64,000 nt of DNA, from positions 31,899 to 95,898 of the forward strand of contig JASKLF010000007.1 in NCBI GenBank assembly GCA_030153785.1. Direction: 5' to 3'. Below, piece after piece: positions 38,026 through 64,000 of this stretch. The notes below the pieces were generated by a model. The model worked only from the letters and a program-made list of their open reading frames with translations, did not search any database and was not told the origin of the DNA. Every line of letters starts with the position of its first letter. The stretch's first letter is position 1. The position numbers were made by a program, and so were the translations under genes. This DNA is from a bacterium. Lineage in GTDB: Bacteria; Synergistota; GBS-1.

Positions 38026-38032
38026 TTACAGC

Positions 38033-41817: not shown

Positions 41818-41835
41818 GAAAGGAGGGGATAGAAC

Positions 41836-43032: not shown

Positions 43033-43042
43033 GGAATCCTTC

Positions 43043-44688: not shown

Positions 44689-44893
44689 CTTCTATCTTCT
44701 CCCTTCACAGCAACAAGAACTTGGTTCATTCGTAATTCAAAATAATAATGCTCGCGCATCACGAAACCTCTCCCTTCCAATAAATCAACTATATCCCTCT
44801 TCGAATAGTATCTTTTATGGTCTTTATGTATTTTAAAACCTCCTTTGCCCTGAAATAAGCCAGCTTTTCATCAAAGAAGCCCCACCTTCCCAT
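44685..44893 (-). pseudogene. Internally deleted, frameshifted class I methyltransferase remnant
   Basis: N-terminal MGRWGFFDEKLAYFRAKEVLKYI joined out of frame to C-terminal DHKRYYSKRDIVDLLEGRGF..HYYFELRMNQVLVAVK. 209 nt (not a multiple of 3); its stop overlaps the GT-C start (ATGA). Confidence 0.6.
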
Positions 44894-44901
44894 GCCCCCG
44901 C

Positions 44902-47871: not shown

Positions 47872-47874
47872 AGT

Positions 47875-48513: not shown

Positions 48514-50519
48514 TCCAAAAGCTCCCTCAGCTCCTCCTCGCTCTTTAATATATCCCTCGGTTTCCCCCCACCCTTGGAGGGCCCCACTATACCCATTTTT
48601 TCAAGGATGTCAAGCAATCGTGCAGCACGAGCGTAGCCCACACCAAGCTTGCGCTGTAAGAGCGTGGCAGAAGCGGTCTTCGTATTAACGATCACCTCTA
48701 TAGCCTTTCTATACAAAGGGTCTTGTGGAATATCATCAAAAAACTCCTCTTCCTCAGAAGCCTTGATAAGCTCATCCCAATATTCAGGCTCACCAAGCCT
48801 GCGAAGGTAATCGGTTACAACCCTAACTTCATCTTCGCTAACCCAGGCACATTGAGCCCTTATGGGATGGCCAAAGGTTGGTGAAAGGAAAAGCATGTCT
48901 CCCTTGCCCAAAAGCCTTTCAGCGCCGGAGAAGTCAAGGATGGTTCTTGAATCAGCCTGAGAAGGTAGAGAAAAGGCGATTCTCGCAGGAATATTAGCCT
49001 TTATCAGCCCCGTGACCACGTTAACGGAGGGTCTTTGAGTGGCCAATACTAAGTGAATGCCCGTGGCCCGCGCCATTTGGGCAAGCCTACAAATAGACTC
49101 CTCTACCTCCCTCGGAGATAGCATCATAAGATCGGCAAGCTCATCTATGACAACAACTACATAGGGAAGCTTCTCCTCATTTTTGAGCTTATTAAACCCC
49201 GTTATATCTCTCACGCCATAACGGGAAAAGCTTTTGTATCTCCTTTCCATCTCTTGAAGAAGTCCGTTCAAGACGTTCACAGCGTCCTTAACCTCCGTCA
49301 CTACAGGAACAGCTAAGTAAGGTATCTCATTATAGATGCTGAATTCAACTCTCTTCGGATCGATGAGAACCAACCTAAGGTCTTCAGGCTTGTTTCTAAA
49401 TATGAGGCTCATTATTATCACATTAAGACAAACGCTCTTGCCAGAGCCCGTTGAACCCGCAACAAGTAGGTGCGGTAAATCGGAGATGTTAATAACTAAC
49501 GGGGCACCTGCCACATCTCTGCCCAAAGCGATGGCTAAAGCCCCTTTTGCCCTTTTAAAGCTTTGAGAGCTAATTATCTCCTTAAGGTAAACTACCCTCC
49601 TAACCTTGTTTGGGACCTCCACTCCCACAAGCCCCTTCCCGGGAATAGGCGCCTCGATTCTAACGGTCTGTGCTTTAAGATTTAAAGCTATCTCTTTTGA
49701 TAAAGAAGCAATTCTGTTAACCTTTACCCCTCTCGCCGGTTGAACCTCAAAACGGTGAACTGTAGGGCCAATAACCACGTTCACCACTTTCGCATCTATG
49801 CCAAAGTTTGCAAAGGTCTCCTCAAGCTCCCTTTTTTCCTCCTCTACGGGTTCTCCGTCCTCCTCAAATGGTGGAGGCTCGTAAAGAAGATCCACAGGTG
49901 GGGGAATGGTTATCTCTTCCTTTTCAACAGCTTCCTGCGTCTGGGGAACTTTTTCCTTCGCCTTTCTCTTGGAAGCACCCGCGCTTATGGGCTCTTCATC
50001 GAAGCTAACCTCTTCCTTTTCAACCTTCCCAACTTCTCTCCTTTTCCCCTCCCTCCTTTTAGCGGGGCGCTTTTCTCCAGCCCTCTCCCTAAAGAGGGAA
50101 AACAATGCCCTCATGGGCTTACCAAAAAGCCAATAAAGAATTGACAGAAAGGCCACAGTTAAAACAATGGCACTGCCAGCGGTCCCTATGTAGTAGCTCA
50201 GCTTAGCGAAAAGAAACCTGCCAACAACTCCACCCTTTTGGGGGAAAAGCCTATCAGGAATGAGAAAATGAAACAAAAGGGAAGAAACGGGAAGAAGGAG
50301 GAATAAGGGAAGCATGGGAAGCTTTAATCCCAGAAGAGTCAGACCCTCAAATAATAAGAGCAAACAGAAAAGATAGGAGGATAAGCCGAAAAGCTTCAAA
50401 AGCTCTCCCTTGATGAAATTGCCCACCATGCCGGTCTTGAAATTAAGTAGACTTATGATGGAAAAAACGGACGCGAAAAGTAAAAATAAAGCTATGGCTA
50501 TTTTCCTTTTATCCCTCAC
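48510..50519 (-). CDS. ftsK: DNA translocase FtsK/SpoIIIE
   Basis: N-terminal TM helices, HLLVAGSTGSGKS, IDELADLM, ATQRPS, gamma domain LQRKLGVGYARAAR; start probably GTG 50519. Confidence 0.95.
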   Translation of the reverse strand: MRDKRKIAIALFLLFASVFSIISLLNFKTGMVGNFIKGELLKLFGLSSYLFCLLLLFEGLTLLGLKLPMLPLFLLLPVSSLLFHFLIPDRLFPQKGGVVGRFLFAKLSYYIGTAGSAIVLTVAFLSILYWLFGKPMRALFSLFRERAGEKRPAKRREGKRREVGKVEKEEVSFDEEPISAGASKRKAKEKVPQTQEAVEKEEITIPPPVDLLYEPPPFEEDGEPVEEEKRELEETFANFGIDAKVVNVVIGPTVHRFEVQPARGVKVNRIASLSKEIALNLKAQTVRIEAPIPGKGLVGVEVPNKVRRVVYLKEIISSQSFKRAKGALAIALGRDVAGAPLVINISDLPHLLVAGSTGSGKSVCLNVIIMSLIFRNKPEDLRLVLIDPKRVEFSIYNEIPYLAVPVVTEVKDAVNVLNGLLQEMERRYKSFSRYGVRDITGFNKLKNEEKLPYVVVVIDELADLMMLSPREVEESICRLAQMARATGIHLVLATQRPSVNVVTGLIKANIPARIAFSLPSQADSRTILDFSGAERLLGKGDMLFLSPTFGHPIRAQCAWVSEDEVRVVTDYLRRLGEPEYWDELIKASEEEEFFDDIPQDPLYRKAIEVIVNTKTASATLLQRKLGVGYARAARLLDILEKMGIVGPSKGGGKPRDILKSEEELRELLE

Positions 50520-51876
50520 CACCAATAACCAACCCTCCCACAAGCATGGTAGGTTGTCCATCTCCTACAGGGACGCTCTGCCCATCCTTACCGCATAAAC
50601 CCACATCGAAATTTAAGTCCCTTCCAAGCATCTTTATATTCCTCAGAACTTGAGGCCCATTACCTATGAGAAGCGCGCCTCTAACAGGCTTACCTATCTT
50701 GCCCTTCTCTATCAGGTATCCCTCGGTAACCTTGAACACGAAATTACCATCGGTAGGGTTAACCTCTCCTCCGCCCATCTTTAAGACTAAAAGCCCTCTT
50801 TCAACGGAGGATAAAATCTCGTCGAAGGAGTGTTCTCCAGGTTCGAGAAATGTATTGGTCATTCTCGGTATAGGAAAATCCTTAAAGCCTTCCCTTCTCC
50901 CATTTCCAGTTAAGGGCAACCCCATCAGCTTCGAAGAGAGTCTATCGGTCAGATACCCCTTAAGTACCCCCTTTTCTATCAAAACGGTTCTCTGTGCAGG
51001 AACTCCCTCATCATCGAAACTTATGCTACCTCCCAGACCAGGGATAGTTCCGTCATCAACAAGAGTGACCAAAGGAGAAGCTACTTCCTGTCCTATCTTC
51101 TCGGCATAAACGGAGCTTTCCTTTCTGACGATATCTGCCTCAAGACCATGACCACACGCCTCGTGTATCATCGTTCCCCCCGCTTCTCCAGCTATTACCA
51201 CATCCATCATGCCTGCTGGAGCTGGATCGGCGGAGAGAGTCAAAAGGGCTCTTTTTAAAACCTTTTCAGCAACTTCAAAAGGGTCACGCTCCTCTAATAC
51301 CTCATCCCCCTTCGTTCCACCTATAACCTCATAACCGGTTTCAAGCCTTCCATCCTTCTCTACCACAACCCCCATGGTAAGAAAGGTATAAATCCTTTTA
51401 TCGTTTACCAAGCCACCTTCATCATTTCCAACCCATACATCTTGATGGGACCTTCTGTAAGACAGGACAACCTGTCTTACAAGCTCATTCTTCCTGAAAA
51501 ATTCGTTTAGCTTCCAAAGGAGCTCAACCATGCCTTGAAGAGGCTCCCTCTTAAGACAGGAGCTCCCTCCGGTTAACAAACTCCTACTAACAAATCTTCC
51601 GGGCCTTTCTTCCCTTAACGCTTCTCGTAGAGCTTTAATGCCCTCCTCGAGAAACTTCACATCAGGAAGCCCGTGAAAGTAGTAATTTCCCTCCCCCTTA
51701 ACCACTCTCAAGCCCATACCCTTTTTCATGCCGAAAGCGGAATACTCCAGCTTATCATCCTCTATCTTTATCGATTCCCCACTTGATATCTCTATAAAAA
51801 CATCGCTTAAATCTCCAAGATTATAAAGGTTATCGATCGCCTTTAAGGCAAGCTCCTTATAATCCAAAAAACTCAC
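50509..51876 (-). CDS. tldD: TldD metalloprotease
   Basis: HEACGHGLEAD, DDEG, TGNGRR, PRMTNT, CGKDGQSVPV. Confidence 0.9.
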   Translation of the reverse strand: MSFLDYKELALKAIDNLYNLGDLSDVFIEISSGESIKIEDDKLEYSAFGMKKGMGLRVVKGEGNYYFHGLPDVKFLEEGIKALREALREERPGRFVSRSLLTGGSSCLKREPLQGMVELLWKLNEFFRKNELVRQVVLSYRRSHQDVWVGNDEGGLVNDKRIYTFLTMGVVVEKDGRLETGYEVIGGTKGDEVLEERDPFEVAEKVLKRALLTLSADPAPAGMMDVVIAGEAGGTMIHEACGHGLEADIVRKESSVYAEKIGQEVASPLVTLVDDGTIPGLGGSISFDDEGVPAQRTVLIEKGVLKGYLTDRLSSKLMGLPLTGNGRREGFKDFPIPRMTNTFLEPGEHSFDEILSSVERGLLVLKMGGGEVNPTDGNFVFKVTEGYLIEKGKIGKPVRGALLIGNGPQVLRNIKMLGRDLNFDVGLCGKDGQSVPVGDGQPTMLVGGLVIGGEG

Positions 51877-52919
51877 CCCCTGATACTTCTTCTCAGATTG
51901 AAACTAACCTTAGAAGGAAGTAACAAGCTAATCTTCCCTTCTCCCTTAAAAAGGGAAACCCATCCCAACCCTGATATCGCTAAATCTAACCCCTCCGAAA
52001 CTTCTAAAACCTCTTCACTCCAACCTATTTCCTCTATCCTATCAAAACATCCCTTACAGGGAGGCTTAAGCCATTCACCAGCGCCTTCCTTGATCACCTC
52101 TTTTAGTCTCTTTTGATTTGTCCTATGTAAAGGAACTTCATAAGAAACAAAGGGTTTTAAAAGTAACCCCCCTGTCAAAACGGTTAAGGCCGAAAGCCCT
52201 CCCAATGAGAGGCTCTTTCCGCTCTTCAGAAAGAAAATCTTGCCGGAAAGCTTCTTAGATGGAATAACCTTCTTCTGGCAATCGGGGCAGAGAAGGTCAT
52301 AAAGCCTGCCCGAAGGAACGAGTCCCGGTGTATCAATAAAAATAGTGCCTTCCTCGTTTTTTCTCTCCACCACATCTATGGTAGTCCCCGGCCACGGAGA
52401 AACGGTTATGCTCTCATCACCTAAAAGCCTACCAACCAAACTGCTTTTACCCACATTCGTAACTCCCATGAATGCAACCTTTTTCCCCCTATAGACAAAG
52501 TTAAGCTCCTCCCAAAAACCTTTTAAACCCCACCCCTTCTTACTCGAGGTCAAGAAGACCTTCCCACTCCAACCTTTTTCCTCTCTCAGCCATTTTACTA
52601 TCTCTTCCTTAGAGAAGGGGAGAAGATCGGTCTTATTAACCACGACCCATATATTTTTGGCCTCCCTAAATCTATCTAAAACCCAGCTTCCCTCAATATC
52701 AACTCCATCAACTATCAAGCAAATCAGATCAACATTTTTTGCTATCTCATCGAAGGGGAAATCCTCAACGGGAACGCTTCTAAATTCTCCATAGTACTTT
52801 ATCTTAAAACATCTTTGACATAAGCCCCGCGGGTCGTCAAGCTTTTCAGGCGGTATATATCCCGGTCTTTTAGGGTCATCGCTCTGAAGAGGAACCCCAC
52901 AACCCCTGCACCTTTTCAT
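51873..52919 (-). CDS. yqeH: Circularly permuted ribosome-biogenesis GTPase YqeH
   Basis: CRGCG..Q, CQRC zinc finger, NKTD, GVTNVGKS, PGTT, DTPG. Confidence 0.88.
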   Translation of the reverse strand: MKRCRGCGVPLQSDDPKRPGYIPPEKLDDPRGLCQRCFKIKYYGEFRSVPVEDFPFDEIAKNVDLICLIVDGVDIEGSWVLDRFREAKNIWVVVNKTDLLPFSKEEIVKWLREEKGWSGKVFLTSSKKGWGLKGFWEELNFVYRGKKVAFMGVTNVGKSSLVGRLLGDESITVSPWPGTTIDVVERKNEEGTIFIDTPGLVPSGRLYDLLCPDCQKKVIPSKKLSGKIFFLKSGKSLSLGGLSALTVLTGGLLLKPFVSYEVPLHRTNQKRLKEVIKEGAGEWLKPPCKGCFDRIEEIGWSEEVLEVSEGLDLAISGLGWVSLFKGEGKISLLLPSKVSFNLRRSIRG

Positions 52920-53208
52920 ACTCCATCTCCTCTATTTTTAAGCCTTCATCCCTCAATCCCTCTATGACCTTAAGACATATAGGGAGACACGAAGGAGTAG
53001 TAATAAGCACGATTACGCCTTCTTTAGGATCCATAGTCCTTATTTCCCCTATCTCATCATAGCATTGAAATATGGAACACAGATAATATATCTCTCTATA
53101 GTCGAGCTTAAAAAACTTTCTAATAAGAGTCTTATCTGCCTCTCTTGAGATATCTATTTTTGGCCTCGACATGCTCATCATAGGTTCTCGAAAAGTGATG
53201 CCCTCCAT
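52876..53208 (-). CDS. Small hypothetical protein (DUF4911-like); true start probably near 53172 or later
   Basis: I.Y...I...YD.....RT.D...G pattern; fills the gap between mltG and yqeH. Confidence 0.55.
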   Translation of the reverse strand: MEGITFREPMMSMSRPKIDISREADKTLIRKFFKLDYREIYYLCSIFQCYDEIGEIRTMDPKEGVIVLITTPSCLPICLKVIEGLRDEGLKIEEMEYEKVQGLWGSSSER

Positions 53209-54139
53209 CTCCCTTACTAACGAAATAGAGATAATCGACCTTTGCGGGGAAAAAAACCCCTAAAATGGCTTTCAATCCGGGGTTGCATATGGGCCCCGGT
53301 GGCAGTCCGCTATAAAGATAAGTATTGTAAGGAGAGTCTATTTTTAAGTCATCGAAGGTTAACCGTTCCTTTCTCTTAGGTAGGATATACTCCACGGTAG
53401 CGCAGGATTCAAGCTTCATCCCCTTTTTTAGTCTATTGTAAAACACAGCAGCTATTATTGGATATTCCTCATCCTTTAAGCCTTCCTTCTCAACTATGGA
53501 GGCGAGTATTATAGCCTCGTGAAACCTCAATCCAAGCTTTGGAAGCTCCTTGAGCATCTCCGGCTTTATAGCCCTCTCAAATCTTTTAAGCATTGCACTG
53601 ATGACATTCCTGGGGGAAGCATGCTTAGGAAAGTAATAGGTATCAGGAAACAGGTAACCCTCAAGGCTTGAAGAGGGAATCTCATCTAAAAATTTAAACC
53701 CCTTAAATACTTCCTTCCCGTTAAAAACCAGATTCAAAAACTCCTCCTCTGAAGTAATAACTTCTTTATCCAAAAGAATCTCGGCTATCTCTCTTGCCGT
53801 CAGCCCCTCAGGTATGGTCACCTTCTCAAGGCGAGGTCTCTCCTTGAGGGCCTCTATAACCTCATAGATGCTCATACCCTCGCTTAAAAAGTAACCACCC
53901 GCTCTAAGAAAAAGCCCATGCCTCCTCGCTTCTTCAAGAAAAATCTCGGAGCTTTTTATAACCCTCAGTTTCTCAAGCCTTTTTCCGACGCCCGAAAGGT
54001 TTTCATTGGGATATATGTAAAAGCTCACCTTCCCACCTTTTGAAAGCTTAGGCAAATCTTCAAGCTTAAGAGGGTAAATCAACGGATAGGCGAAGAAGAA
54101 AACGGAAAAAACGAAAATCAAAAAACCCATTAACCTCAT
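53132..54139 (-). CDS. mltG: Endolytic transglycosylase MltG (YceG)
   Basis: TIPEG, EGYLFPDTY, ASIVEKE, SPYNTY, GLPPGPICNPG, YLYFV. Confidence 0.93.
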   Translation of the reverse strand: MRLMGFLIFVFSVFFFAYPLIYPLKLEDLPKLSKGGKVSFYIYPNENLSGVGKRLEKLRVIKSSEIFLEEARRHGLFLRAGGYFLSEGMSIYEVIEALKERPRLEKVTIPEGLTAREIAEILLDKEVITSEEEFLNLVFNGKEVFKGFKFLDEIPSSSLEGYLFPDTYYFPKHASPRNVISAMLKRFERAIKPEMLKELPKLGLRFHEAIILASIVEKEGLKDEEYPIIAAVFYNRLKKGMKLESCATVEYILPKRKERLTFDDLKIDSPYNTYLYSGLPPGPICNPGLKAILGVFFPAKVDYLYFVSKGDGGHHFSRTYDEHVEAKNRYLKRGR

Positions 54140-54147
54140 TTACCGAC

Positions 54148-54744
54148 TCACCCCATAAGCCTTATGATAGCGAGCTGAATAAAACCAATCAGCAAACCCA
54201 AAACTCCCCCCGCTATCTCAACAAAGCGAAGCTCCCTGGAGGCTACACGCATAACGATTCCCTCAAACTCCTTAAAATCAAAAGCATTAACCTTCCCCTC
54301 TACAATATCCTTCAAAGTGAGCCGTTCTAAAACCTCTTCTCTAATTTTATCTCTTATCTCAGGAATAGCTTCCCTCAGCTTCCTTTCGAGCCACCCATTT
54401 AAAAAATAAGATATGGGAAATAAAAAGGTCTCTGGAAACCATGAAGGATAGGCCTCCTTAACCCTTTTCTCTATGAGAGATAAAATCCTCCTCACCAGAG
54501 CATCCTCTATTTCCGGACTCTCAAGCTTCGCCCAGACATCATTCTTCGAAAGGAGCTCCTCTTCTACCACCTCAGCAATAGCTTTTGCTATTGCCCTTTT
54601 CCTTCTCGGCAAAACCCCCTGAATTTCGATACCAAGAATAGGTATCCTTACAGGCTCATGAGGCCTAAAAAGCAATTTTATAGCAATAACATTGGTTATC
54701 CACCCAACAAAAGCAGCCACAGCCGGCAAAATTATATATTCCAT
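54148..54744 (-). CDS. DUF445 family membrane protein
   Basis: GWITNVIAIKLLFRP, QGVLPRR, ELRFVE..GGVLG..IG..Q. Confidence 0.85.
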   Translation of the reverse strand: MEYIILPAVAAFVGWITNVIAIKLLFRPHEPVRIPILGIEIQGVLPRRKRAIAKAIAEVVEEELLSKNDVWAKLESPEIEDALVRRILSLIEKRVKEAYPSWFPETFLFPISYFLNGWLERKLREAIPEIRDKIREEVLERLTLKDIVEGKVNAFDFKEFEGIVMRVASRELRFVEIAGGVLGLLIGFIQLAIIRLMG

Positions 54745-54794
54745 GAAGCCGTTTCAAGGGCGGGTTATCCCCGCCCTCAACCTTTTTAAAAAGG

Positions 54795-55045
<251 letters not shown>

Positions 55046-55125
55046 GTTGCTCGGAAGCAAGAAAACTAAGCGAAAAAAACATGTTTAAAATATAATAATC
55101 TTTTGCTATAATAAACTTCAAAGGA

Positions 55126-55467
55126 GTGATAGATTTGGATATAGGCAAAAAAATTAAAAACCTGAGAAAGAAGAAAGGGTTAACGTTGCAGGAGCTTTCT
55201 CAAAGGAGCGGTGTCTCCCCAGGCTACATTTCAATGCTTGAAAGGGGCTTTAAAAAATCACCCACACTGGATGTATTAAAAAAGCTCGCAAAGGGACTCG
55301 AAGTTAACCTATCGGAGCTAATAGGAGAAGAGCTGGTCAACCTCGAAAAAGACGAAAGGACGAAGCTTCTTCTTAGGGCTGCAAACGAGTTATCGAAGTT
55401 AGATTTGGAAAGCTTGGAACAGTTACTTAGGGCGATAAGAGAGCTTAAAAAGAAAGAAGACGAATGA
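55126..55467 (+). CDS. XRE-family HTH repressor (ImmR-like)
   Basis: IKNLRKKKGLTLQELSQRSGVSPGYISMLERG..SPT..LKKLA. Confidence 0.9.
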   Translation: MIDLDIGKKIKNLRKKKGLTLQELSQRSGVSPGYISMLERGFKKSPTLDVLKKLAKGLEVNLSELIGEELVNLEKDERTKLLLRAANELSKLDLESLEQLLRAIRELKKKEDE

Positions 55468-56063
55468 GCTTACCCGTGGACTTGGAAAAGATAGCCTTAA
55501 GCTTGGGTATAACCTTAATCCCTTACCCCTTGCCATCATCTATTTGTGGCTTCGCCTACTTAGGGAAAAGCAAGTTCATCATTTATAACTCCAACCATCC
55601 CCTAACGAGACAAAGGTTCACAATTGCCCACGAAATCTATCATATAGAAAAACACCTCATGCGCGAAAGGATGATCAAGAAACATAGAAAAGTTCTTGAG
55701 GAAGAAGCAAACAGGGGAGCAGCGAAAATCTTACTACCCTACAGCGACTTATTAGCACACATAAAAGAGGCTCATTGGAGATACGACCTCACTTCGCTTG
55801 CTAAAAAGGCAATCGTATCTCCCATAACCCTCGTAAAGAGATTAGATGAAACAAAACTTCTTAAGGTATCACTGTATAAAATTAGCCTCAAGGGAAGCTC
55901 GCCATGCATATCCAAGCTATACGGCGACTCCGTCCCTTTACCTAACCCAGCCCTTTTAAGAGAGGGAGCCAATGGGAAGGAATTCTTCTTCAGAAGTAAC
56001 GGCCATTTATTCCGATTCTCCAGATACGGAGAAAACACCCTCCTTTACGCCTATGTGATATAA
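55464..56063 (+). CDS. ImmA/IrrE family metallo-endopeptidase
   Basis: RQRFTIAHEIYH (HExxH) and EEEANRGAAKILLP. Confidence 0.88.
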   Translation: MSLPVDLEKIALSLGITLIPYPLPSSICGFAYLGKSKFIIYNSNHPLTRQRFTIAHEIYHIEKHLMRERMIKKHRKVLEEEANRGAAKILLPYSDLLAHIKEAHWRYDLTSLAKKAIVSPITLVKRLDETKLLKVSLYKISLKGSSPCISKLYGDSVPLPNPALLREGANGKEFFFRSNGHLFRFSRYGENTLLYAYVI

Positions 56064-56101
56064 TATGTCCTAAGTTTACCGCTTGGAGGCAAGATTAAAC
56101 C

Positions 56102-56944
56102 TTGAATCGAAACTCTGAAGACAAATACAGGCTTTTGTTTGAAAAAGCCAGTGACGCCATAATAATACTGGAAGAGGGTAGGGTTAGCGAGCTTAACGAA
56201 AGCGCGAAGAAGCTTTTTGCATGCTCCCAAGAAGAGGTAATAGGTAAACCTATTACCTCTCTTATCCCCGTATCCCGCGAAGATTTAGAAGAGATTCTCA
56301 GGGGAGAGGCGAAAAGACTTGAAATAGAATGCAGGAGAGCAAACGGAACACCCCTCGAGGTTGAAATAAGCCTGAGTAAAGCCAAGATAGGTGGGAAAGA
56401 CCTGCTTTTCGCATTCATCCGCGACATAACGGAAAGAAAAAGGGAGATAAAGAAGCTACTTTTTATATCCATAGTGGACCCCTTAACGGGCGCCTACAAC
56501 AGGAGATACTTTAGAAAGAGATTAGAAGAGGAAATAGAAAGGGCAAAGCGCACCGAAGGAACCTTCTCTCTCATCATGTTTGACTTAGATAACTTTAAGG
56601 AGATAAACGATAAATACGGGCATGAGGTTGGAGATATAACCATTAGAAAGGTCTCAAGGGTGGTCAGAGAGAGAATAAGAAAGACGGATATTTTTGCAAG
56701 ATGGGGTGGAGAGGAGTTTTTCATACTTCTACCCAACACAGACCTTGATGGAGCGGTGAAGCTGGCTGAGGAGTTGCGAGACAGGATAAATCAAATAGAG
56801 ATACCGGGCGGAGAAAGGGTAACCGCAAGCTTCGGCGTAACGAGCTACCGTCCCGGAGACACTGCAAAAGACTTAAGGACAAGAGCGGATAGCCTCCTTT
56901 ACAAATCAAAGGCCTCTGGCAAAAACCGCATAAGCTTCAAATAA
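56102..56944 (+). CDS. PAS-GGDEF diguanylate cyclase
   Basis: PAS ending in RDITERK; DPLTG, RKTD I-site, RWGGEEF A-site. Confidence 0.92.
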   Translation: MNRNSEDKYRLLFEKASDAIIILEEGRVSELNESAKKLFACSQEEVIGKPITSLIPVSREDLEEILRGEAKRLEIECRRANGTPLEVEISLSKAKIGGKDLLFAFIRDITERKREIKKLLFISIVDPLTGAYNRRYFRKRLEEEIERAKRTEGTFSLIMFDLDNFKEINDKYGHEVGDITIRKVSRVVRERIRKTDIFARWGGEEFFILLPNTDLDGAVKLAEELRDRINQIEIPGGERVTASFGVTSYRPGDTAKDLRTRADSLLYKSKASGKNRISFK

Positions 56945-57004
56945 CCCCCCCCTATTAAAGTCACAATCTACTAAATCGTATTGATAATTCTGCTTACAGC
57001 TTTA

Positions 57005-57033
57005 TTGACATTATTTTCGCATTATGTTAATCT
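57005..57033 (+). promoter_or_regulatory. Putative promoter of the coo operon
   Basis: TTGACA-N17-TAATCT with TG extension. Confidence 0.55.
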
Positions 57034-57066
57034 GAAATTGACAATTTCCCCAAGGGGGGTGAAAGG

Positions 57067-57684
57067 ATGGCAACCCCATCTTATGAGAGTGATAGGTTAA
57101 TGGTCTACATAAATCCAGCGAAATGCACCGGCTGTAAATCCTGCGAAGTGGCATGTGCCGTTGAAAAATCGGGAAGCAAAAACCTCTTTGAAGCCATCTT
57201 TGAAAGGCCGATACCGAAAGCAAGAACAAAGGTCATATTGGTAGATTTCTTCAACTTCCCCGCACGATGTCAACACTGTGAAGAAGCCCCCTGTTTGAAT
57301 GTCTGTCCCACATCCGCCATAGAAAAGAGCCCGGAAGGCTACATATTGCTTGACGAAAAAAGATGCATAGGCTGTTTAATGTGTGTTATAGCCTGCCCGT
57401 TCGGACACCCCCGATATGAAAGAGAATATAAGTCTATCCTAAAGTGCGACCTATGCATCGAAAGGGTCAGAGAGGGAAAGCTACCTGCATGCGTTGAGGC
57501 CTGTCCGACGGAAGCCCTTCTTTTCGGAACGGTAGAGGAGATAACTGAGCGTATCAAAAGGGAAAGCTCCGAAAGGCTACTTCAAGGTTTGAAAATGCCA
57601 GAAGTGGTGATGATCAAGGAAAGCACCGAGGGAACGAAGCCTTCGAACATCTACTTGGCCTATTCAAAAGTTAAATGGTATTAG
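57067..57684 (+). CDS. cooF: CooF four-cluster ferredoxin-like electron-transfer protein
   Basis: CTGCKSCEVAC, CQHCEEAPCLNVCP, CIGCLMCVIACP, KCDLC..PACVEACP. Confidence 0.88.
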   Translation: MATPSYESDRLMVYINPAKCTGCKSCEVACAVEKSGSKNLFEAIFERPIPKARTKVILVDFFNFPARCQHCEEAPCLNVCPTSAIEKSPEGYILLDEKRCIGCLMCVIACPFGHPRYEREYKSILKCDLCIERVREGKLPACVEACPTEALLFGTVEEITERIKRESSERLLQGLKMPEVVMIKESTEGTKPSNIYLAYSKVKWY

Positions 57685-57701
57685 AAAAGAGGTGAGGAAA
57701 A

Positions 57702-59600
57702 GTGAAAGAGCATGTGAGGTTCAAGGTAGCCTCGAAGGGAGTTTCAGCGACGGAGAACGTAGAAGAGCTTTTAGAGAAAGCCGAAAGGGAAGGCATAGAA
57801 ACCGCATGGCATAGATTTATAGAACAGCAACCCCAATGTGGATTTGGTTTACTTGGAATATGCTGTAGAAACTGCGCTATGGGACCGTGTAGAATAGACC
57901 CGTTTGAATCGGGAGCATCAAAGGGAGTTTGTGGAGCCAACGCTGATACCATAGTTGCGAGAAACATAGTAAGGATGATAGCTGCAGGTTCGGCTGCCCA
58001 CAGCGACCATGCACGAGATATAAACCATGTGTTTAAGTCCGTAACCCGAGGAGAAAACAATTATTACAAGCTTACCGACAGGGAAAAGCTAAAAAGCTTG
58101 GCAAGCGCCCTCGGTATAGAAACGGAAGACAAAGACATAACCGATATCGGAAATCAGGTAGCGGAAATTCTGGAGGCAGAGTTCGGCAAACAAGACGACG
58201 AGCCATTAAGGCTACTTAAAGCCCTCGCTCCTAAGAGGAGATACGAAACGTGGGAAAAGCTGAACCTTCTCCCGAGAGCGATAGACAGGGAGATATGCGA
58301 ATGCATGCACAGAACCACGATGGGAGTGGATGCCGACCCTGTTAGCCTTCTTCTTCACGGCGTTAGAACCGCCTTAAGCGATGGATGGAGCGGTTCCATG
58401 ATGGCAACGTATCTTAGCGATATCCTGTTTGGGACACCAAAACCGATTACATCCTCCGCCAACCTCGGTGTGCTCAAGGAAAACATGGTAAATATAATCC
58501 TTCACGGCCACAACCCCATACTTTCAGCAAAGATAGCTGAAATTGCCACAAGCGATGAGATGCAGAACCTCGCCAAGGAGAGAGGAGCCGAAGGAATAAA
58601 TGTGGCAGGGATATGTTGCACCGGCAACGAGGTCCTGATGAGAATGGGAATACCCCTGGCAGGCAACTTCTTAATGCAGGAACTTGCAATTATAACCGGA
58701 GCAGTTGAAGCTATGATAGTAGACTATCAGTGTCTGATGCCAGCTTTGGCAGATGTAGCAAGCTGTTATCATACTAAATTGATAACTACGGAATCTAAGG
58801 CGAGAATCCCCGGCGCAAAGCATATGGAATTTAACCCTGAAAGGGCAGACGAACTGGCGAAGGAGATAATAAAGATGGCCATAGATAACTATCCCAATCG
58901 AATTAAGGAAAAGGTATTTATACCTAAAGGAGAGATGGACCTCATGGCAGGATTCAGCGTAGAGGCAATACTCAATGCCCTTGGGGGAAGCCTTGAGCCC
59001 CTTATAAACGCTATCGAAGATGGGACGATAAAGGGAATAGTGGGGGTAGTAGGCTGTAATAACCCAAGGGTTATCCACAATAACAGTCATGTCACGCTCA
59101 CAAAGGAGCTAATCAAAAGGGACATCTTGGTGGTTGGAACAGGATGCTGGGGAATAGCCGCCGGTATGCATGGCTTATTAAGTTTAAAGGCCATAGATGA
59201 GGCAGGCCCGGGGCTCAAAAGGGTTTGCGAAAGCTTGAACATTCCTCCATGCCTCCACATGGGTTCCTGTGTGGACTGCTCAAGGATACTCATAGCATTA
59301 GGAGCCTTAGCTGACGCCCTTGGAGTAGACATACCCGATTTACCCGTTGCAGGCTCCGCACCAGAATGGATGAGCGAAAAAGCCGTATCCATAGGAACTT
59401 ACTTCGTTGCAAGCGGGGTACTCACTCACCTGGGGGTTATCCCACCCGTATTAGGAAGTCAAAGGGTTACTAAAATACTAACCGAGGAGGTAGAGAGCAT
59501 ACTCGGAGGGAAATTCTATGTGGAGCCCGACCCCGTAAAAGCCGCCTCTACTCTCTATAATTACATATTAAATAAAAGGAAGAAACTCGGTCTATCATGA
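57702..59600 (+). CDS. cooS: Anaerobic Ni,Fe carbon monoxide dehydrogenase catalytic subunit
   Basis: D/B-cluster PQCGFG..GICCRNCAMGPC..VCGA; C-cluster ligands HGHNP, GICCTG, DYQC, GCNN, TGCW and GSCVDC; HSDH and SEKA catalytic residues. Confidence 0.96.
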   Translation: MKEHVRFKVASKGVSATENVEELLEKAEREGIETAWHRFIEQQPQCGFGLLGICCRNCAMGPCRIDPFESGASKGVCGANADTIVARNIVRMIAAGSAAHSDHARDINHVFKSVTRGENNYYKLTDREKLKSLASALGIETEDKDITDIGNQVAEILEAEFGKQDDEPLRLLKALAPKRRYETWEKLNLLPRAIDREICECMHRTTMGVDADPVSLLLHGVRTALSDGWSGSMMATYLSDILFGTPKPITSSANLGVLKENMVNIILHGHNPILSAKIAEIATSDEMQNLAKERGAEGINVAGICCTGNEVLMRMGIPLAGNFLMQELAIITGAVEAMIVDYQCLMPALADVASCYHTKLITTESKARIPGAKHMEFNPERADELAKEIIKMAIDNYPNRIKEKVFIPKGEMDLMAGFSVEAILNALGGSLEPLINAIEDGTIKGIVGVVGCNNPRVIHNNSHVTLTKELIKRDILVVGTGCWGIAAGMHGLLSLKAIDEAGPGLKRVCESLNIPPCLHMGSCVDCSRILIALGALADALGVDIPDLPVAGSAPEWMSEKAVSIGTYFVASGVLTHLGVIPPVLGSQRVTKILTEEVESILGGKFYVEPDPVKAASTLYNYILNKRKKLGLS

Positions 59601-60376
59601 AAATACTGATAGCCGGAAAGGGCGGAGTTGGTAAGACCACGATCTCCGCCCTTTTATCCCTTGAGCTTTCAGAAAGGGGTTACAACGTTTTAGCATTAGA
59701 CACCGATTCGGTCCCCAATTTAGCCATGAGCTTAGGCATTCCTTCTAAGGAAGCAGAAGGCATCGTTCCCATCTCAAAAGACGAAAAGCTGATCGAGGAG
59801 AAAACGGGAGCTAACCCAGGAAGCGGATGGGGGTCCCTATTTTCCCTAACTCCCAAGGTAGATGATATTATCGAAAGACGCTGTGTGAAAATAAAGGAAA
59901 ACCTCAAGCTCTTGGTTGTAGGAAGTATAGATCAAAGCAAAGAAGGCTGTTTATGCCCTGCAATCGCCTTAGCAAAAGCCCTTTTAAGACATATTCTATT
60001 AAAGGAAAGAGATGTAATCATAGTCGATAGCGAAGCGGGCGCCGAAGTTTTCGGAAGAGGATTAGCGGAGAGGTTCAGCGCCATGGTTTGCGTCTCAGAA
60101 CCCACCTACAAATCCATTAAGATATCCAAAAAGCTTTTGGAGATGGGAAAGGAATTGAAGATAGCAAATAGAGTCCTTTTAATAAACAAGGTTCAAAAGG
60201 AAAACTTAGAAAGCCTTAACAGGTTTTCTTTGAGCCCTTACCTCATGATCGAGTTCGACCGAAACGTTAAAAAGATTGACGAAGAGGGGAAACCGCTAAC
60301 GGAGATACCTATCGATTCTCCCATACGAAAGGGAATTAGCTTACTTGCCGAAAAGCTCTTGGAGGCGGGCCAATGA
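59597..60376 (+). CDS. cooC: CODH nickel-insertion ATPase
   Basis: GKGGVGKT, GCLCP (CxC), D.EAG.E.FGRG. Confidence 0.92.
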   Translation: MKILIAGKGGVGKTTISALLSLELSERGYNVLALDTDSVPNLAMSLGIPSKEAEGIVPISKDEKLIEEKTGANPGSGWGSLFSLTPKVDDIIERRCVKIKENLKLLVVGSIDQSKEGCLCPAIALAKALLRHILLKERDVIIVDSEAGAEVFGRGLAERFSAMVCVSEPTYKSIKISKKLLEMGKELKIANRVLLINKVQKENLESLNRFSLSPYLMIEFDRNVKKIDEEGKPLTEIPIDSPIRKGISLLAEKLLEAGQ

Positions 60377-60849
60377 ACAACACAAAAAGGGCGAAAGAGC
60401 TTGAGGAAATTATCCTAAAACATTCCTCACCCGCAGGAAGAATCCTAAGCATATTAGAGGAGATTCAAGAAAGGGAAGGATATCTATCCAAGGAATCTTT
60501 AAAGTACATCTCAAAAAGACTTAACATCCCCCTTGCGGATCTTTACAGCCTTGTAACCTTCTACTCCTTCTTCAACTTGGAAAGGGGAGGGAAGCATACC
60601 ATCACAGTATGTATGGGAACAGCATGCTATGTAAAGGGAGCGCCCAAAATAATAGAAGAATTAGAAAGACGGCTTGGAATAAAAGAGGGAGAGACCACAT
60701 CGGATGGCATTTTCACCATTAAAAGCGCAAGATGCTTCGGAGCCTGTAGCATGGCCCCCGTAGTAAGGATTAACGAGAGAATCTATGGTTATGTATTCCC
60801 GGAAAGCCTCCCCTCCCTTCTTAAGCTTTATGGATGGAAGGAAAAATGA
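60373..60849 (+). CDS. NuoE/HydC-like [2Fe-2S] subunit
   Basis: TFYSFF, VCMGTACYVKG, RCFGACSMAP. Confidence 0.9.
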   Translation: MNNTKRAKELEEIILKHSSPAGRILSILEEIQEREGYLSKESLKYISKRLNIPLADLYSLVTFYSFFNLERGGKHTITVCMGTACYVKGAPKIIEELERRLGIKEGETTSDGIFTIKSARCFGACSMAPVVRINERIYGYVFPESLPSLLKLYGWKEK

Positions 60850-62534
60850 AGATAAGAAGTTTAGAAGACTTAGAGGAGATAGCCCACAGGGGAATCCAAA
60901 AGATTAAAGGAGAAAAAATAAGAATAGCGGTAGGGCTTGGAACCTGCGGGATAGCCACGGGAGCCGATTATGTCTACACATACTTTGAGAACGCAATCAA
61001 AGATTTAACCGAAAGGGTATTTTTAACAAAGGTAGGATGCTTTGGATATTGTAGCGAGGAGCCCTTGGTTAAGGTTACCATCCCGGGGAAGCCTTTAACG
61101 ATACTCTCTAAAGTTAACCCAGAGGAAACGGAGGAAATATTAAGGGCGGTATTATCAGGCGAGATTCCCGACAAAAAAGCCCTTTGCAAAATCGAGGAGT
61201 GGAACCATATAACAGAATATATGGTTTACGGAAAAGGGCTTGCAAATATACCTTCTTACAGCGACCTACCTTTCTTCAGAGGCCAGCTAAAGCTCGTTTT
61301 AAGAAATGCCGGTTTAATAAATCCCGAGGACTTAGAGGAGTATATCGCAATAGGAGGATACAAATCTCTACATAAGGCGCTAAACATGAAACCTGAAGAG
61401 GTCATAGAAGAAGTTAAAAGGGCAGGTCTTCGAGGAAGGGGAGGAGCCGGCTTCCCAACGGGATTAAAATGGGAAATCACCGCTAAAAATGAGAGCGATG
61501 AAAAATATGTGATATGCAACGCCGATGAGGGAGACCCCGGTGCCTACATGAACCGAAACGAGCTTGAAAGCGACCCTCACGCGGTAATAGAGGGCATGAT
61601 CATAGGAGGCTATGCCATAGGAGCAAAGGAGGGAATTATATATATAAGGGCCGAATACCCCCTTGCCATAAAAAGAATAGAAACCGCGATAAAACAAGCA
61701 AGGGAGTATGGCCTTCTTGGGGAAAACATATTTGGAAGCAATTTCAGCTTTGATATAAAGATAGTTAAGGGAGCAGGTGCCTTCGTGTGTGGCGAGGAGA
61801 CAGCAATGATCGCCTCCATAGAGGGCAAAACGGGAAGACCACGCCCACGGCCTCCCTTTCCAGCTGAAAAGGGCCTTTGGGGAAAGCCAACCAGCATAAA
61901 CAACGTGGAAACGTGGTGCAATATCCCAATAATATTGGCGATGGGAGGAGAAAGATTTTCCAAGGTAGGAAAAGAAAACAACGCGGGAACGAAGGTTTTT
62001 TCCTTAGTGGGAGAAGTTAAAAGAATAGGACTTGTGGAAGTTCCTCTCGGAACGAAGCTAAAGACCATAGTTCACGATATCGGAGGAGGCTCACCGAGCG
62101 GTTTGAAAGTGAAGGCGGTTCAAATAGGAGGACCATCGGGAGGTTGCATTCCAGAGGAAGGCTTCGATACTCCGATAGACTATGAAAGCTTAAGGGATTT
62201 AGGTACAATAATGGGCTCGGGTGGAATGGTGGTAATGAGCGAGAAGACCTCCATGGTGGAAACAGCCTTATTTTTCATAGGATTTACAAGTGAAGAGTCC
62301 TGTGGCAAATGCACCCCCTGCAGAGAAGGGCTAAAGCAGATGCTCCACATTCTTCATAAAATACTGAGCAGAAGGGGCTCCGAGGAAGACCTAAAACTCC
62401 TTGAAGAGCTTTCCATGACAATTCAAACCACATCTTTATGCGGACTTGGAAAGACAGCACCAAATCCCGTTTTAACAACGCTACGATACTTCAGGGAGGA
62501 GTATGAAGGGCTGATTAACGATGGTAAAGATTAA
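60846..62534 (+). CDS. NuoF/HydB-like FMN/NAD(P)H-binding subunit without the C-terminal ferredoxin domain
   Basis: GRGGAGFPTG.KW, CNADEGDPGA, GAGAFVCGEET, GGPSGG, ESCGKCTPCREG, LCGLG; protein ends shortly after FREEY. Confidence 0.9.
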   Translation: MKIRSLEDLEEIAHRGIQKIKGEKIRIAVGLGTCGIATGADYVYTYFENAIKDLTERVFLTKVGCFGYCSEEPLVKVTIPGKPLTILSKVNPEETEEILRAVLSGEIPDKKALCKIEEWNHITEYMVYGKGLANIPSYSDLPFFRGQLKLVLRNAGLINPEDLEEYIAIGGYKSLHKALNMKPEEVIEEVKRAGLRGRGGAGFPTGLKWEITAKNESDEKYVICNADEGDPGAYMNRNELESDPHAVIEGMIIGGYAIGAKEGIIYIRAEYPLAIKRIETAIKQAREYGLLGENIFGSNFSFDIKIVKGAGAFVCGEETAMIASIEGKTGRPRPRPPFPAEKGLWGKPTSINNVETWCNIPIILAMGGERFSKVGKENNAGTKVFSLVGEVKRIGLVEVPLGTKLKTIVHDIGGGSPSGLKVKAVQIGGPSGGCIPEEGFDTPIDYESLRDLGTIMGSGGMVVMSEKTSMVETALFFIGFTSEESCGKCTPCREGLKQMLHILHKILSRRGSEEDLKLLEELSMTIQTTSLCGLGKTAPNPVLTTLRYFREEYEGLINDGKD

Positions 62535-63315
62535 GATAAACGATCAGAATCTTTATGCCCGAGAGGGGGAAAACATACTCAAGCTGGCCTTAAAAGAGGG
62601 TATAGATATACCTCACCTATGTTATCACGAGATATTCGAGGAACCCTATGGAGCGTGCAGATTATGCATCGTCGAAGTCATAAAAGATGATGAGAGATTT
62701 ATAACCACATCTTGCACATTGCAGGCTCAGAATGGATTAGAAATACTGACCCAATCTCCAGAGGTAGTGAAACATCGAAAAATCTTGCTTGAGCTTTACT
62801 TGGCTCAGGCTCCGAATGCGGAGAACATAAAAAAGCTTGCAGAAAAATATGGTATCGAGAAATCCAGGTTTCCAAAGAGAGCCTTCGTCACGGACCATCT
62901 TAACGGAAAGTGTATATTGTGCGGACTTTGCATAAGAGTCTGTGGGGAAGTCATGAAAGCGGGGGTAATAAACTACATAGGGCGTGGACCATCCACTAAG
63001 ATAAATACCCCATTCTTCGAGGAAAATCCTGACTGCCTGGGTTGCCTGGCGTGTGTAAACATATGCCCCACGGAAGCCGTCTCCGCGGAAGAGGTCGAAA
63101 ATAGAAAGATTTTAAAATCGTGGAGTGAAACCAAGGTAAAGATGAAGGAATGTAAAAACTGCGGAAGCTTATTTACCACTTACCCCCTGTGGGAAAAAAC
63201 CAAATCGCTCTTAATGGAAATGGATACGGAACTTGAAGAGCTATGCCCGAATTGCAAAAGGGAGCTTTTAATCAAAAAGCTAACGAAAAACCTTCCTCTT
63301 CCTAAACCTTACTAA
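62521..63315 (+). CDS. NuoG/HydA N-terminal-like Fe-S protein with no catalytic domain
   Basis: IPHLC..GACRLC..SC ([2Fe-2S]), CILCGLCIRVC, CLGCLACVNICP, C-terminal CKNC...CPNC. Confidence 0.85.
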   Translation: MVKIKINDQNLYAREGENILKLALKEGIDIPHLCYHEIFEEPYGACRLCIVEVIKDDERFITTSCTLQAQNGLEILTQSPEVVKHRKILLELYLAQAPNAENIKKLAEKYGIEKSRFPKRAFVTDHLNGKCILCGLCIRVCGEVMKAGVINYIGRGPSTKINTPFFEENPDCLGCLACVNICPTEAVSAEEVENRKILKSWSETKVKMKECKNCGSLFTTYPLWEKTKSLLMEMDTELEELCPNCKRELLIKKLTKNLPLPKPY

Positions 63316-63655
63316 CCATGGCAAAAAGCTCTAAAGGTTCATCTCCTATATTCCTTATGCCATGGTAAAATCCGCTTCTCGTCAAAACCATATCGCCCGA
63401 CTTTACCTCACTAATCTCTCCATTATCGTTAACCTCTCCCCTGCCCTTAAGTATGAGGTAAACCTCTTCCTCCCCCACATGCTGATGATAACCAATCGAG
63501 GAACCGGGCGGAATGGTAATTCTCATTACTCTCAAGGCTCCAGGTTCATCCCTCTCCTCGTTAAGGAAGTAGCTCACATAAATCTTGCCTTCCCCACCCC
63601 TGAAGCTTTCCCTCTCGACCGGTTGACTCCTCTCCTCATCTCTAACGAGCATCAA
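63302..63655 (-). CDS. Cupin domain protein
   Basis: PGSSIGYHQH..EEEVY and GD......G.YHGIRN cupin motifs. Confidence 0.85.
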   Translation of the reverse strand: MMLVRDEERSQPVERESFRGGEGKIYVSYFLNEERDEPGALRVMRITIPPGSSIGYHQHVGEEEVYLILKGRGEVNDNGEISEVKSGDMVLTRSGFYHGIRNIGDEPLELFAMVSKV

Positions 63656-63675
63656 ACATCCCCCCTTTCTTAAAA

Positions 63676-63897
63676 TTATAGCAAAGCCTTAAGGAGCTCC
63701 TCCAGCTCTCCCAAAGTCCTTGCTTTCATTATTAACTCCTTTACCTCCTTAAGCTTTTCCACATCCTCCACACCCTTCAGCTTTTCCAGAAAGAGCTTGC
63801 CCTCGTTGCCAAACTTCAGGGAAAGCCACAAGTCGATGACCTCAAGGAGAGTGTCTCTTAAACCCTTGTTTATATTATACTTCTCCTCTTCAGACAT
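63676..63897 (-). CDS. Small protein resembling the C-terminal domain of Rpn/PD-(D/E)XK putative transposases
   Basis: GLRDTLLEVIDLWLSLKFGNEG...VEDVEKLKEVKELI..A.TLGEL; own GGAGGGG SD before ATG 63897. Confidence 0.55.
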   Translation of the reverse strand: MSEEEKYNINKGLRDTLLEVIDLWLSLKFGNEGKLFLEKLKGVEDVEKLKEVKELIMKARTLGELEELLKALL

Positions 63898-64000
63898 CGA
63901 AACCCCTCCTTCAAAGTACATGCTTCGCCCCCCTGAACTTCATTATATCAAAGAGGCAATCAGGATTTCAACGAAATAGCATGAAGAAACAATTTTTGCA

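What the first reader, a model, noticed from the sequence alone, without database searches (positions are those of the whole stretch)
57067..63315. CO dehydrogenase operon continuing into a NuoEFG/HydCBA-like diaphorase: candidate soluble CO:NAD(P)+ oxidoreductase
Seen: cooF-cooS-cooC-nuoE-nuoF-nuoG(N-term) are co-oriented, and from cooS onward every junction overlaps (ATGA at 59597, 60373 and 60846; 14 nt at 62521). CooS has all C-, B- and D-cluster ligands. No ACS, ECH hydrogenase or CooA gene is nearby, and the NuoG-like protein has no hydrogenase or FDH catalytic domain. Known: characterised CooS enzymes couple to ACS, to ECH via CooF, or to a single FAD-NAD oxidoreductase, while HydABC-like modules usually serve hydrogenases, FDHs or WORs. 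Inference: CooS-CooF is the catalytic head of a NuoEFG-type complex linking CO/CO2 directly to the NAD(P)H pool. I know of no biochemically characterised example.
Basis: partly seen in the sequence, partly recalled or inferred. Interest (0 to 1): 0.8.

Follow-up and report, generated by a model that had tools for sequence, protein, structure and literature searches.

The report
CO dehydrogenase with tail-less NADH module
Six linked genes, present or absent as one block, encode a nickel CO dehydrogenase and a flavin module that likely form one enzyme passing electrons from carbon monoxide to NAD+; it is a variant of a predicted but unpurified enzyme that lacks the tail normally used to hand electrons to ferredoxin, so it would test what that tail is needed for.

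Summary
In detail: cooF-cooS-cooC-E-F-G are intact, co-oriented and overlap as stated. A same-genus genome lacks exactly this 6.36-kb block, and the gene set recurs in family relatives and in 20 of 20 fetched methanogen-class loci. The idea is not new: a CODH-BfuABC enzyme (Codh-Bfu, 'CodhABCSF') was predicted in 2022 and 2025 and is unpurified. This scan reached the same reading earlier on other DNA (e1-5086866). The evidence adds three things. (1) G is not a bare NuoG N-terminus: it has the WorA fold (9MQX, TM 0.81), with the zinc finger and end helix that dock a CooF homologue. (2) F lacks all B2 ligands and the B3/B4 ferredoxin domain, so it fails the Bfu definition, yet keeps the bifurcating-type flavin pocket. 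Short forms nest inside full-length relatives. (3) CooS is Thermococcales-type (76% to T. onnurineus) and does not group with the other module-linked CooS (AU p=0.004), which suggests a swapped head. Best reading: a soluble, ferredoxin-independent CO:NAD+ oxidoreductase (0.5). Main rival: HoxEFU-style bifurcation using free ferredoxin (0.25). Binding and activity are untested. New variant of a known, predicted kind.

The parts
56945..63301 (+). Whole cassette, absent as one block in same-genus genome G001 (only 15 bp between the GGDEF stop and the cupin stop there)
57005..57033 (+). Candidate sigma-70 promoter (TTGACA, 17 nt, TG-n-TAATCT), read by eye; not listed by the consensus scan; TTGA aligned in G002 and G003. 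Weak.
57067..57684 (+). cooF, 4x[4Fe-4S] wire; 16 Cys invariant in 32 aligned sequences; second-best PDB hit is WorS (9mqx_E, E 4e-28), aligned into its C-terminal helix
57702..59600 (+). cooS, Ni-CODH catalytic subunit, clade E by kinship (76% to T. onnurineus NA1 CooS, listed as E-1 by Inoue 2019); best PDB hit 6T7J (1122 bits)
59597..60376 (+). cooC-like Ni-insertion ATPase (P-loop GKGGVGKT, GCLCP motif; CooC name from motif recall and position; Pfam gives the CbiA/ParA class only)
60373..60849 (+). E = BfuC/HoxE/NuoE-like [2Fe-2S] subunit (C80, C85, C121, C125)
60846..62534 (+). F = tail-less BfuB-like FMN/NAD(H) subunit: N-terminal thioredoxin-like site with 3 Cys (C34, C65, C69), AYM / F313 / GGPSG pocket, B1 [4Fe-4S] (C486, 489, 492, 532); B2 ligands lost (S469 for Cys, L556 for His, stop before the last two Cys); no B3/B4 domain
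62521..63315 (+). G = WorA-type (type 2) BfuA: [2Fe-2S] + 2x[4Fe-4S], no His-ligated cluster, C-terminal Cys4 (C211, 214, 242, 245; zinc finger by homology) and predicted helix 243-256
54795..54983 (-). Context, not part of the cassette: single-cluster ferredoxin gene 2 kb upstream, inside the stretch that also aligns to G001, which lacks the operon

Best explanation
The six genes form one cassette that likely encodes a soluble complex, CooS-CooF-G-F-E, predicted to oxidise CO and pass both electrons to NAD+ without a built-in ferredoxin branch. Shown: gene content, cluster-ligand motifs, all-or-none presence, the WorA fold of G, and absence of the B2 ligands and B3/B4 domain in F. Inferred from WorABCSL: CooC matures CooS; electrons run C cluster > B/D clusters > CooF > G (A4-A2-A1) > F (B1) > FMN > NAD+; the zinc-finger-braced end helix of G docks in CooF. 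Inferred from phylogeny: the enzyme descends from a full-length Codh-Bfu that lost its ferredoxin exit, and in this family it carries a Thermococcales-type cooF-cooS-cooC head. With a gap of about 0.2 V (recalled potentials; about -39 kJ/mol) it would run essentially one way, as a CO sink. The host has no ACS gene, so CO would give reducing power or be detoxified rather than fixed; the NADH could be reoxidised by the NiFe-HydABCSL-like hydrogenase on C14 (inferred).
For: Empty site: G001 (same genus, 99% complete) keeps both flanks and lacks window 56945-63301. Same six genes in G002 and G003. In the class of an archaeal MAG titled Methanobacteriota (L004/G041), 35 of 251 genomes match G at E<=1e-45; I fetched 20 of the 35, and 20 of 20 show cooF-cooS-E-F(short)-G, 19 with cooC after G and one cut by the contig end. 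There E-F-G is enclosed between cooS and cooC. Of 80 metagenome loci, the 14 closest (G 45-51%) include 7 with enough upstream DNA, and 7 of 7 have cooF-cooS-E-F-G. G's best sequence and fold match is WorA (9mqx_A: E 1.6e-31; Foldseek E 2.4e-21, TM 0.81/0.87 on a pLDDT 90.6 model), whose zinc finger and helix recruit the CooF homologue WorS (PMC12318220). Among the top 120 F homologues, 115 parsed: 68 short forms (the window's own included) all lack the upstream B2 Cys, the H-C-C and the Fd motifs, and 47 long forms all have them. The HydB C-terminal domain is present in characterised bifurcating [FeFe] enzymes and absent in non-bifurcating ones (PMC9499530). Removing the B4 ligands of T. sibiricus NfnB cut bifurcation from 17.2 to 0.76 U/mg (PMC12018979).
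Against: F keeps the three pocket features typical of bifurcating enzymes (AYM for AFM, Phe313, GGPSG), which characterised non-bifurcating beta subunits lack (PMC7311640; PMC12018979); the genome's own C14 F2 shows the non-bifurcating pattern (ADEGEPGTFKD, Tyr, GGAAG), the window's F does not. A 2026 preprint reports that Synechocystis HoxEFUYH bifurcates with free ferredoxin although HoxF lacks the same C-terminal domain and keeps the same three motifs (10.64898/2026.06.25.734504). So tail loss does not prove loss of bifurcation. The head appears exchangeable (AU p=0.004), and the window's CooF ends differently from the methanogen-class CooF, which fits loose coupling as well as a tolerant dock. 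A distal Mbh hydrogenase offers another sink, and the closest characterised CooS relatives sit next to such a hydrogenase (T. onnurineus context). No biochemical or expression data exist for this locus.
Confidence: 0.5

Rival explanations
1. Same complex, but it still bifurcates in the HoxEFU manner: CO electrons are split at FMN between NAD+ and a free ferredoxin that docks near the E [2Fe-2S] cluster and the N-terminal site of F.
For: F has HoxF's architecture: N-terminal thioredoxin-like domain, bifurcating-type pocket, no tail. Best NCBIfam hit of E is HoxE and second-best of G is HoxU, both below cut-off. Pocket motifs are kept in short and long forms alike. The preprint reports a strict NADH + ferredoxin requirement for H2 production by HoxEFUYH.
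Against: The N-terminal site has only three canonical Cys (C34, C65, C69), the pattern of T. sibiricus NfnB, where it binds redox-inactive Zn; a fourth ligand such as C114 is possible. The Hox result is one preprint, and it notes ferredoxin reduction without NAD+. CO reduces NAD+ or ferredoxin without coupling, so there is little energetic need (PMC12318220 makes the same point for aldehydes, yet WorABCSL is coupled).
Confidence: 0.25
2. Co-regulated but not one enzyme: CooS-CooF reduces free ferredoxin, which feeds the distal Mbh hydrogenase or a separate E-F-G ferredoxin:NAD+ oxidoreductase.
For: Head order cooF-cooS-cooC equals the T. onnurineus cassette that precedes a membrane hydrogenase. 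The head groups with Thermococcales CooS. Group-4-type large subunits are present in G000 and in 4 of 4 relatives tested. A ferredoxin gene lies 2 kb upstream.
Against: G keeps the invariant zinc-finger Cys (52 of 52) and the end helix whose known role is to bind a CooF-like subunit. G001 keeps the group-4 subunit and the ferredoxin region but lost all six genes together. In relatives E-F-G is enclosed between cooS and cooC.
Confidence: 0.15
3. The complex works mainly with NADP(H), or in reverse, making a trickle of CO from CO2 (for instance as a ligand or redox valve).
For: In two loci (L027, L065) F carries a GltD-like FAD/NAD(P) domain in place of the tail, so NADP-linked versions of the chassis probably exist. 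The methanogen-class hosts presumably need NADPH more than NADH (inference).
Against: The window's F has no such domain and keeps CGEET like A. mobile HydB, although that motif is not diagnostic (WorB has CGESS). NADH alone would support a CO/CO2 ratio of only about 1e-7 (recalled potentials).
Confidence: 0.1

Closest known systems
Codh-Bfu / CodhABCSF (predicted; Schut 2022 PMC9304861, Feng 2025 PMC12318220)
   Same: CooS + CooF + BfuA/B/C genes in one cluster; type 2 BfuA without the His-ligated A3 cluster, with zinc finger and end helix; unpurified.
   Different: Codh-Bfu was defined on BfuB with the full cluster set and reported as 4 sequences, Firmicutes only. Here B2, B3 and B4 are gone; hosts are a probable Synergistota family and many methanogen-class genomes; the head is Thermococcales-type.
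WorABCSL of Acetomicrobium mobile (PDB 9MQX)
   Same: G matches WorA in sequence and fold over its whole length; CooF matches WorS; provides the template for docking and electron path.
   Different: Catalytic subunit is a Ni-CODH (a homodimer, recalled), not a tungsten aldehyde oxidoreductase. WorB has B2-Zn, B3 and B4 and needs NAD+ and ferredoxin together.
Cyanobacterial HoxEFU(YH)
   Same: Beta subunit with N-terminal thioredoxin-like domain, AFM/Phe/GGPSG-type pocket and no C-terminal ferredoxin domain.
   Different: HoxU uses a His-ligated cluster and serves a [NiFe] hydrogenase; G lacks that cluster. The window's N-terminal site has three canonical Cys.
Thermococcus onnurineus NA1 CooF-CooS-CooC (Codh-Mch-Mnh)
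   Same: 76% CooS identity, clade E, same head order cooF-cooS-cooC.
   Different: Followed there by membrane hydrogenase and antiporter genes; here by a soluble NAD(H) module.
CooS-CooF-FNOR operons
   Same: CO oxidation wired to the pyridine-nucleotide pool through CooF; two Synergistota-phylum relatives (L008, L009) have this type.
   Different: One FAD protein (COG1251) instead of a three-subunit FMN module.

Membership tests
Ni-CODH (CooS) | TIGR01702 over cut-off and full B, C, D ligand set | tested here: met
   779 bits vs 478; residues; cluster assignment recalled
Ni-CODH (CooS) | CO/CO2 interconversion | not testable with these tools
   needs assay; 76% identical to T. onnurineus CooS
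Bfu family / Codh-Bfu | BfuC with C1 [2Fe-2S] | tested here: met
   E C80, C85, C121, C125; PF01257
Bfu family / Codh-Bfu | BfuB FMN/NAD domain, B1 cluster and pocket motifs (A-x-M, Phe, GGPSG) | tested here: met
   AYM rather than AFM, also in full-length relatives
Bfu family / Codh-Bfu | B2 site (Cys, His, Cys, Cys) | tested here: not met
   S469 for A. mobile C438, L556 for H525, protein ends at 562; the genome's own C14 BfuB has all four
Bfu family / Codh-Bfu | C-terminal B3/B4 2x[4Fe-4S] domain | tested here: not met
   no Fer4 domain; stop confirmed in contigs of three runs and in 68 short homologues
Bfu family / Codh-Bfu | B5 site in the N-terminal domain | tested here: inconclusive
   three canonical Cys; [2Fe-2S] or Zn cannot be told from sequence (PMC12018979)
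Bfu family / Codh-Bfu | Type 2 BfuA (A1, A2, A4, no A3) with zinc finger and helix | tested here: met
   the zinc itself is inferred from WorA
Bfu family / Codh-Bfu | Coupled reduction of NAD+ and ferredoxin | not testable with these tools
   needs assay
Non-bifurcating NADH-dependent beta subunits (Losey 2020 criteria) | Fewer Fe-S centres (no C-terminal clusters) | tested here: met
Non-bifurcating NADH-dependent beta subunits (Losey 2020 criteria) | Tyr at the FMN-site position and no GGPSG | tested here: not met
   F313 and GGPSG 428-432; criteria
Respiratory complex I N-module (NuoEFG) | NuoF over TIGR01959 cut-off; full-length NuoG; adjacent membrane arm | tested here: not met
   490.8 vs 558.65 bits; G 264 aa, 80 vs 470 bits; no membrane-arm genes in window 48000-64000

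The most novel reading that the evidence does not exclude
A widespread clade of Bfu-derived CO dehydrogenases has shed the ferredoxin tail yet kept the bifurcating flavin pocket, giving either the first direct CO:NAD+ oxidoreductase of this design or a tail-independent bifurcating CODH. The chassis is plug-and-play at both ends: heads swap through a WorA-type docking helix (Thermococcales-type versus methanogen-type CooS), and outputs swap at the F terminus (ferredoxin tail, GltD-like FAD domain, or nothing). Cultured hosts of the gene order offer a natural with-tail / without-tail comparison for how Bfu enzymes gate electrons.
Probability: 0.45. Interest if true: 0.72.

Novelty: new variant of a known kind. 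Interest (0 to 1): 0.55.

Why it matters
How Bfu/HydABC enzymes bifurcate with a single FMN is unresolved, and whether the B-subunit tail is required has just been challenged by the HoxEFUYH preprint. Natural near-isogenic forms with and without the tail (62-66% identical F proteins) on the same CODH chassis make that question testable. A ferredoxin-free CO:NAD+ oxidoreductase would add a route for CO use in fermenters and hydrogenotrophic methanogens with no adjacent ACS or ECH, and could serve for NADH regeneration from syngas. It is not a surprise in kind: the CODH-BfuABC pairing is predicted in print.

Tried and rejected
Complex prediction of CooF with G was not available, so there is no model of the interface. 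No RNA holder listed: the four runs holding the stretch are labelled metatranscriptomic but flagged as probably DNA, one study, contigs only; not used for expression. My idea that CGEET versus CGEST tells NAD from NADP was dropped: NAD-using WorB has CGESS and a paper search for the NuoF residue gave 0 hits. Short F as an assembly or gene-calling artefact: rejected. Two independent tail losses: suggested by the first tree, where fused L027 fell among short forms (96/80); the larger tree gave one short clade (SH-aLRT 92, one change) and a single origin is not rejected (AU p=0.40); the number of losses is unsettled. Rows dropped: one search kept 48 rows and lost L030 and other partial or motif-variant rows to my pattern; one search skipped L023; could not parse 5 of 120 (their Pfam lists show Fer4 domains). 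The single genome-contig scan with one protein gave only 1 locus. Cluster member names could not be retrieved, so neighbourhoods of most F and CooS homologues are unknown, including whether the Thermococcales-type CooS of Desulfurobacterium crinifex (P0161) is module-linked; the direction of the head swap is therefore inferred only from parsimony. The promoter scan was at chance level (14 vs 9.7 +/- 3.5). PMC13056359 has no Nuo/NADH/Bfu/Hox mention; PMC6085454, PMC5441870 and 10.64898/2026.07.10.736077 passages did not describe this architecture.
Full report
Observation. CooS passes the NCBIfam cut-off for the anaerobic CODH catalytic subunit and carries Cys/His at all expected positions (cluster assignment recalled). 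It is the only cooS in the 95.7% complete genome. The genome has no ACS, Rnf or [FeFe] hydrogenase hit, and no CooA candidate apart from a CRP-family gene beside hcp. It does have a distal Mbh-type hydrogenase on C1 and an A. mobile-like NiFe-HydABCSL locus on C14 (named by resemblance to Figure 1 of PMC9304861). The host is probably Synergistota: the closest named F relative, P0245 (68%), is labelled Synergistetes bacterium.

One unit. G001, same genus and 99% complete, aligns to window 48001-56938 and again to 63303-63870, with 15 bp between the GGDEF and cupin stops: the 6.36-kb block is missing cleanly. G002 and G003, other genera of the family, have all six genes at the same site, so loss in G001 is the simpler reading. 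Of 201 genomes of the phylum, only G000, G002, G003 and G007 have a close G (E<=1e-89; the next is 1e-38). Outside the phylum, an archaeal MAG has cooF-cooS-E-F-G-cooC (L004). In its class 35 of 251 genomes match G; I fetched 20 of the 35, favouring long contigs, and all 20 show cooF-cooS-E-F-G with a short F, 19 with cooC last. Named G homologues include Methanospirillum, Methanoplanus and Methanoregula proteins. Among 80 metagenome loci, 7 of the 14 closest have enough upstream DNA and all 7 show the operon; 7 of the 66 more distant loci have a cooS. These genomes are kin, and L033 and L114 may be the same contig, so the counts are not independent events.

What G is. G has a [2Fe-2S] motif, two [4Fe-4S] motifs, no His-ligated cluster motif, and four C-terminal Cys invariant in 52 of 52 aligned sequences (52 chosen from 120 listed of 903 hits). 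Its best PDB match by sequence and by fold (TM 0.81/0.87, E 2.4e-21, next best E 2.5e-13) is WorA of WorABCSL. In that structure these Cys form a zinc finger bracing an end helix that recruits WorS, a CooF homologue, placing two clusters 10.7 A apart (PMC12318220 sections 7 and 11). The model of G ends in a helix at 243-256, and CooF's second-best PDB hit is WorS. This is the strongest argument for a physical complex, and it is by homology only.

What F is. F aligns to BfuB proteins (9n5u_B, 7t2r_B) but ends 30 residues after the last B1 Cys. It lacks the His and two Cys of the B2 site, and the upstream B2 Cys is Ser. The genome's own C14 BfuB has all of them. In the top 120 homologues the pattern is all-or-none: 68 short without any B2 ligand or ferredoxin motif, 47 long with all, 5 unparsed. 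Short forms nest inside long ones in both trees; one origin is favoured by the larger tree (SH-aLRT 92) and not rejected on the smaller set (p=0.40). The flavin pocket remains of the bifurcating type. Three outputs occur on the same operon: ferredoxin tail (L030, L098), GltD-like FAD domain (L027, L065) and no tail (window).

The head. CooS is 75-76% identical to Thermococcales CooS but 52-58% to the CooS of the other module-linked operons. Trees place it with Thermococcales, and forcing it with the other module-linked CooS is rejected (p-AU 0.004, quick tree, 20 rows; the group was chosen). The order cooF-cooS-cooC is that of T. onnurineus, whereas the other operons put cooC last. G007 has a short F with cooC after G and a methanogen-type cooS on another contig (linkage inferred). 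Parsimony suggests this family swapped in a Thermococcales-type head; the direction is not proven.

Mechanism. Most likely (0.5) a soluble CO:NAD+ oxidoreductase: CooS > CooF > G > F-FMN > NAD+, with no built-in ferredoxin exit and effectively one-way. Support for reading tail loss as loss of bifurcation comes from PMC9499530, PMC11406978 and the NfnB B4 mutant. Against it, the preprint on HoxEFUYH reports bifurcation with free ferredoxin by an enzyme whose HoxF has this same tail-less, motif-keeping design; hence the rival at 0.25. Loose coupling through free ferredoxin to Mbh or to a separate E-F-G is 0.15, NADP-linked or reverse operation 0.1.

Against what is known. Schut 2022 predicted Codh-Bfu (4 sequences, Firmicutes, type 2) and defined the family by a complete BfuBC cluster set; Feng 2025 named it CodhABCSF and called it unpurified. 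Inoue 2019 found COG1894/1905/1034 enriched near Ni-CODH, placed them in the WLP group, and lists the stand-alone order for M. hungatei, M. palustris and D. thermolithotrophum in Supplementary Table 2 without discussion in the passages I saw. The window works like Codh-Bfu/WorABCSL in layout but is not a Bfu member by definition. I found no paper describing a tail-less CODH-linked module in searches; the library lacks most subscription journals, and I did not see Schut's Supplementary Table 1 or preprint supplements. This scan noted the same variant before in another genome (e1-5086866), which is not independent evidence.

Papers seen. PMC9304861: abstract, passages, section 5 parts 1-2 of 3, section 6 part 1 of 2, one supplement search. 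PMC12318220: passages, sections 7 and 11. PMC12018979: passages, section 6. 10.64898/2026.06.25.734504: abstract, section 7 part 1 of 2, sections 8 and 9. PMC6344411: passages and supplement rows. PMC13056359, PMC9499530, PMC7311640, PMC11406978, PMC5441870, PMC6085454, 10.64898/2026.07.10.736077: passages only. Recalled, not from a call: redox potentials of CO and NAD+, CooS ligand numbering, the CooC motif, the CooS homodimer.

Verdict. Real, conserved and worth a biochemist's time; a new variant of a predicted kind, interest 0.55.

Noticed in passing
G000:C14 ~23900-40200 (L001, L002): Acetomicrobium-like NiFe-HydABCSL locus with two E/F pairs: a full BfuB (598 aa) and a second short F (523 aa) of the non-bifurcating motif type (ADEGEPGTFKD, Tyr, GGAAG); a WorSL-like pair lies upstream.
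   Followed up: partly
G000:C4 10000-18700: Genes resembling formylmethanofuran dehydrogenase subunits, formyltransferase and cyclohydrolase (H4MPT-type C1 pathway; names by eye, one molybdopterin hit) in a probable Synergistota genome without ACS.
   Followed up: no
G000:C1 ~40600-49200: Mbh-type membrane [NiFe] hydrogenase cluster with Mrp-like subunits and a maturation protease.
   Followed up: partly
L027:6723-9992 and L065:6720-9995: CODH operons whose F keeps B2 but carries a GltD-like Fer4_20 + Pyr_redox_2 domain in place of the ferredoxin tail; candidate CO-linked NAD/NADP enzyme.
   Followed up: partly
L003:5832-9849 (G000:C9): Archaeal-type glutamate synthase followed by a CooF-like gene and an FNOR-like FAD protein: a second CooF-like wire with a different head.
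   Followed up: no
window 56958-56988; L017 ~8085-8118: Upstream of the candidate promoter G003 has an inverted repeat TTGTAACAC-N14-GTGTTACAA, degenerate in the window and G002; possible operator, regulator unknown.
   Followed up: no
window 55126-56944 (+): XRE-HTH, IrrE/ImmA-like peptidase and PAS-GGDEF genes upstream; kept in G001, which lacks the operon, so not part of the cassette.
   Followed up: yes
L046, L061, L086, L091, L099: Another set of tail-less F genes (about 570 aa, Tyr-type pocket where parsed) beside a G-like gene, four of five with a WorS-like ORF upstream and none with cooS: a separate tail-less module with an unidentified head.
   Followed up: no
G000:C8 ~2000-6900: Type III CRISPR (Csm-like) genes, by eye.
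   Followed up: no
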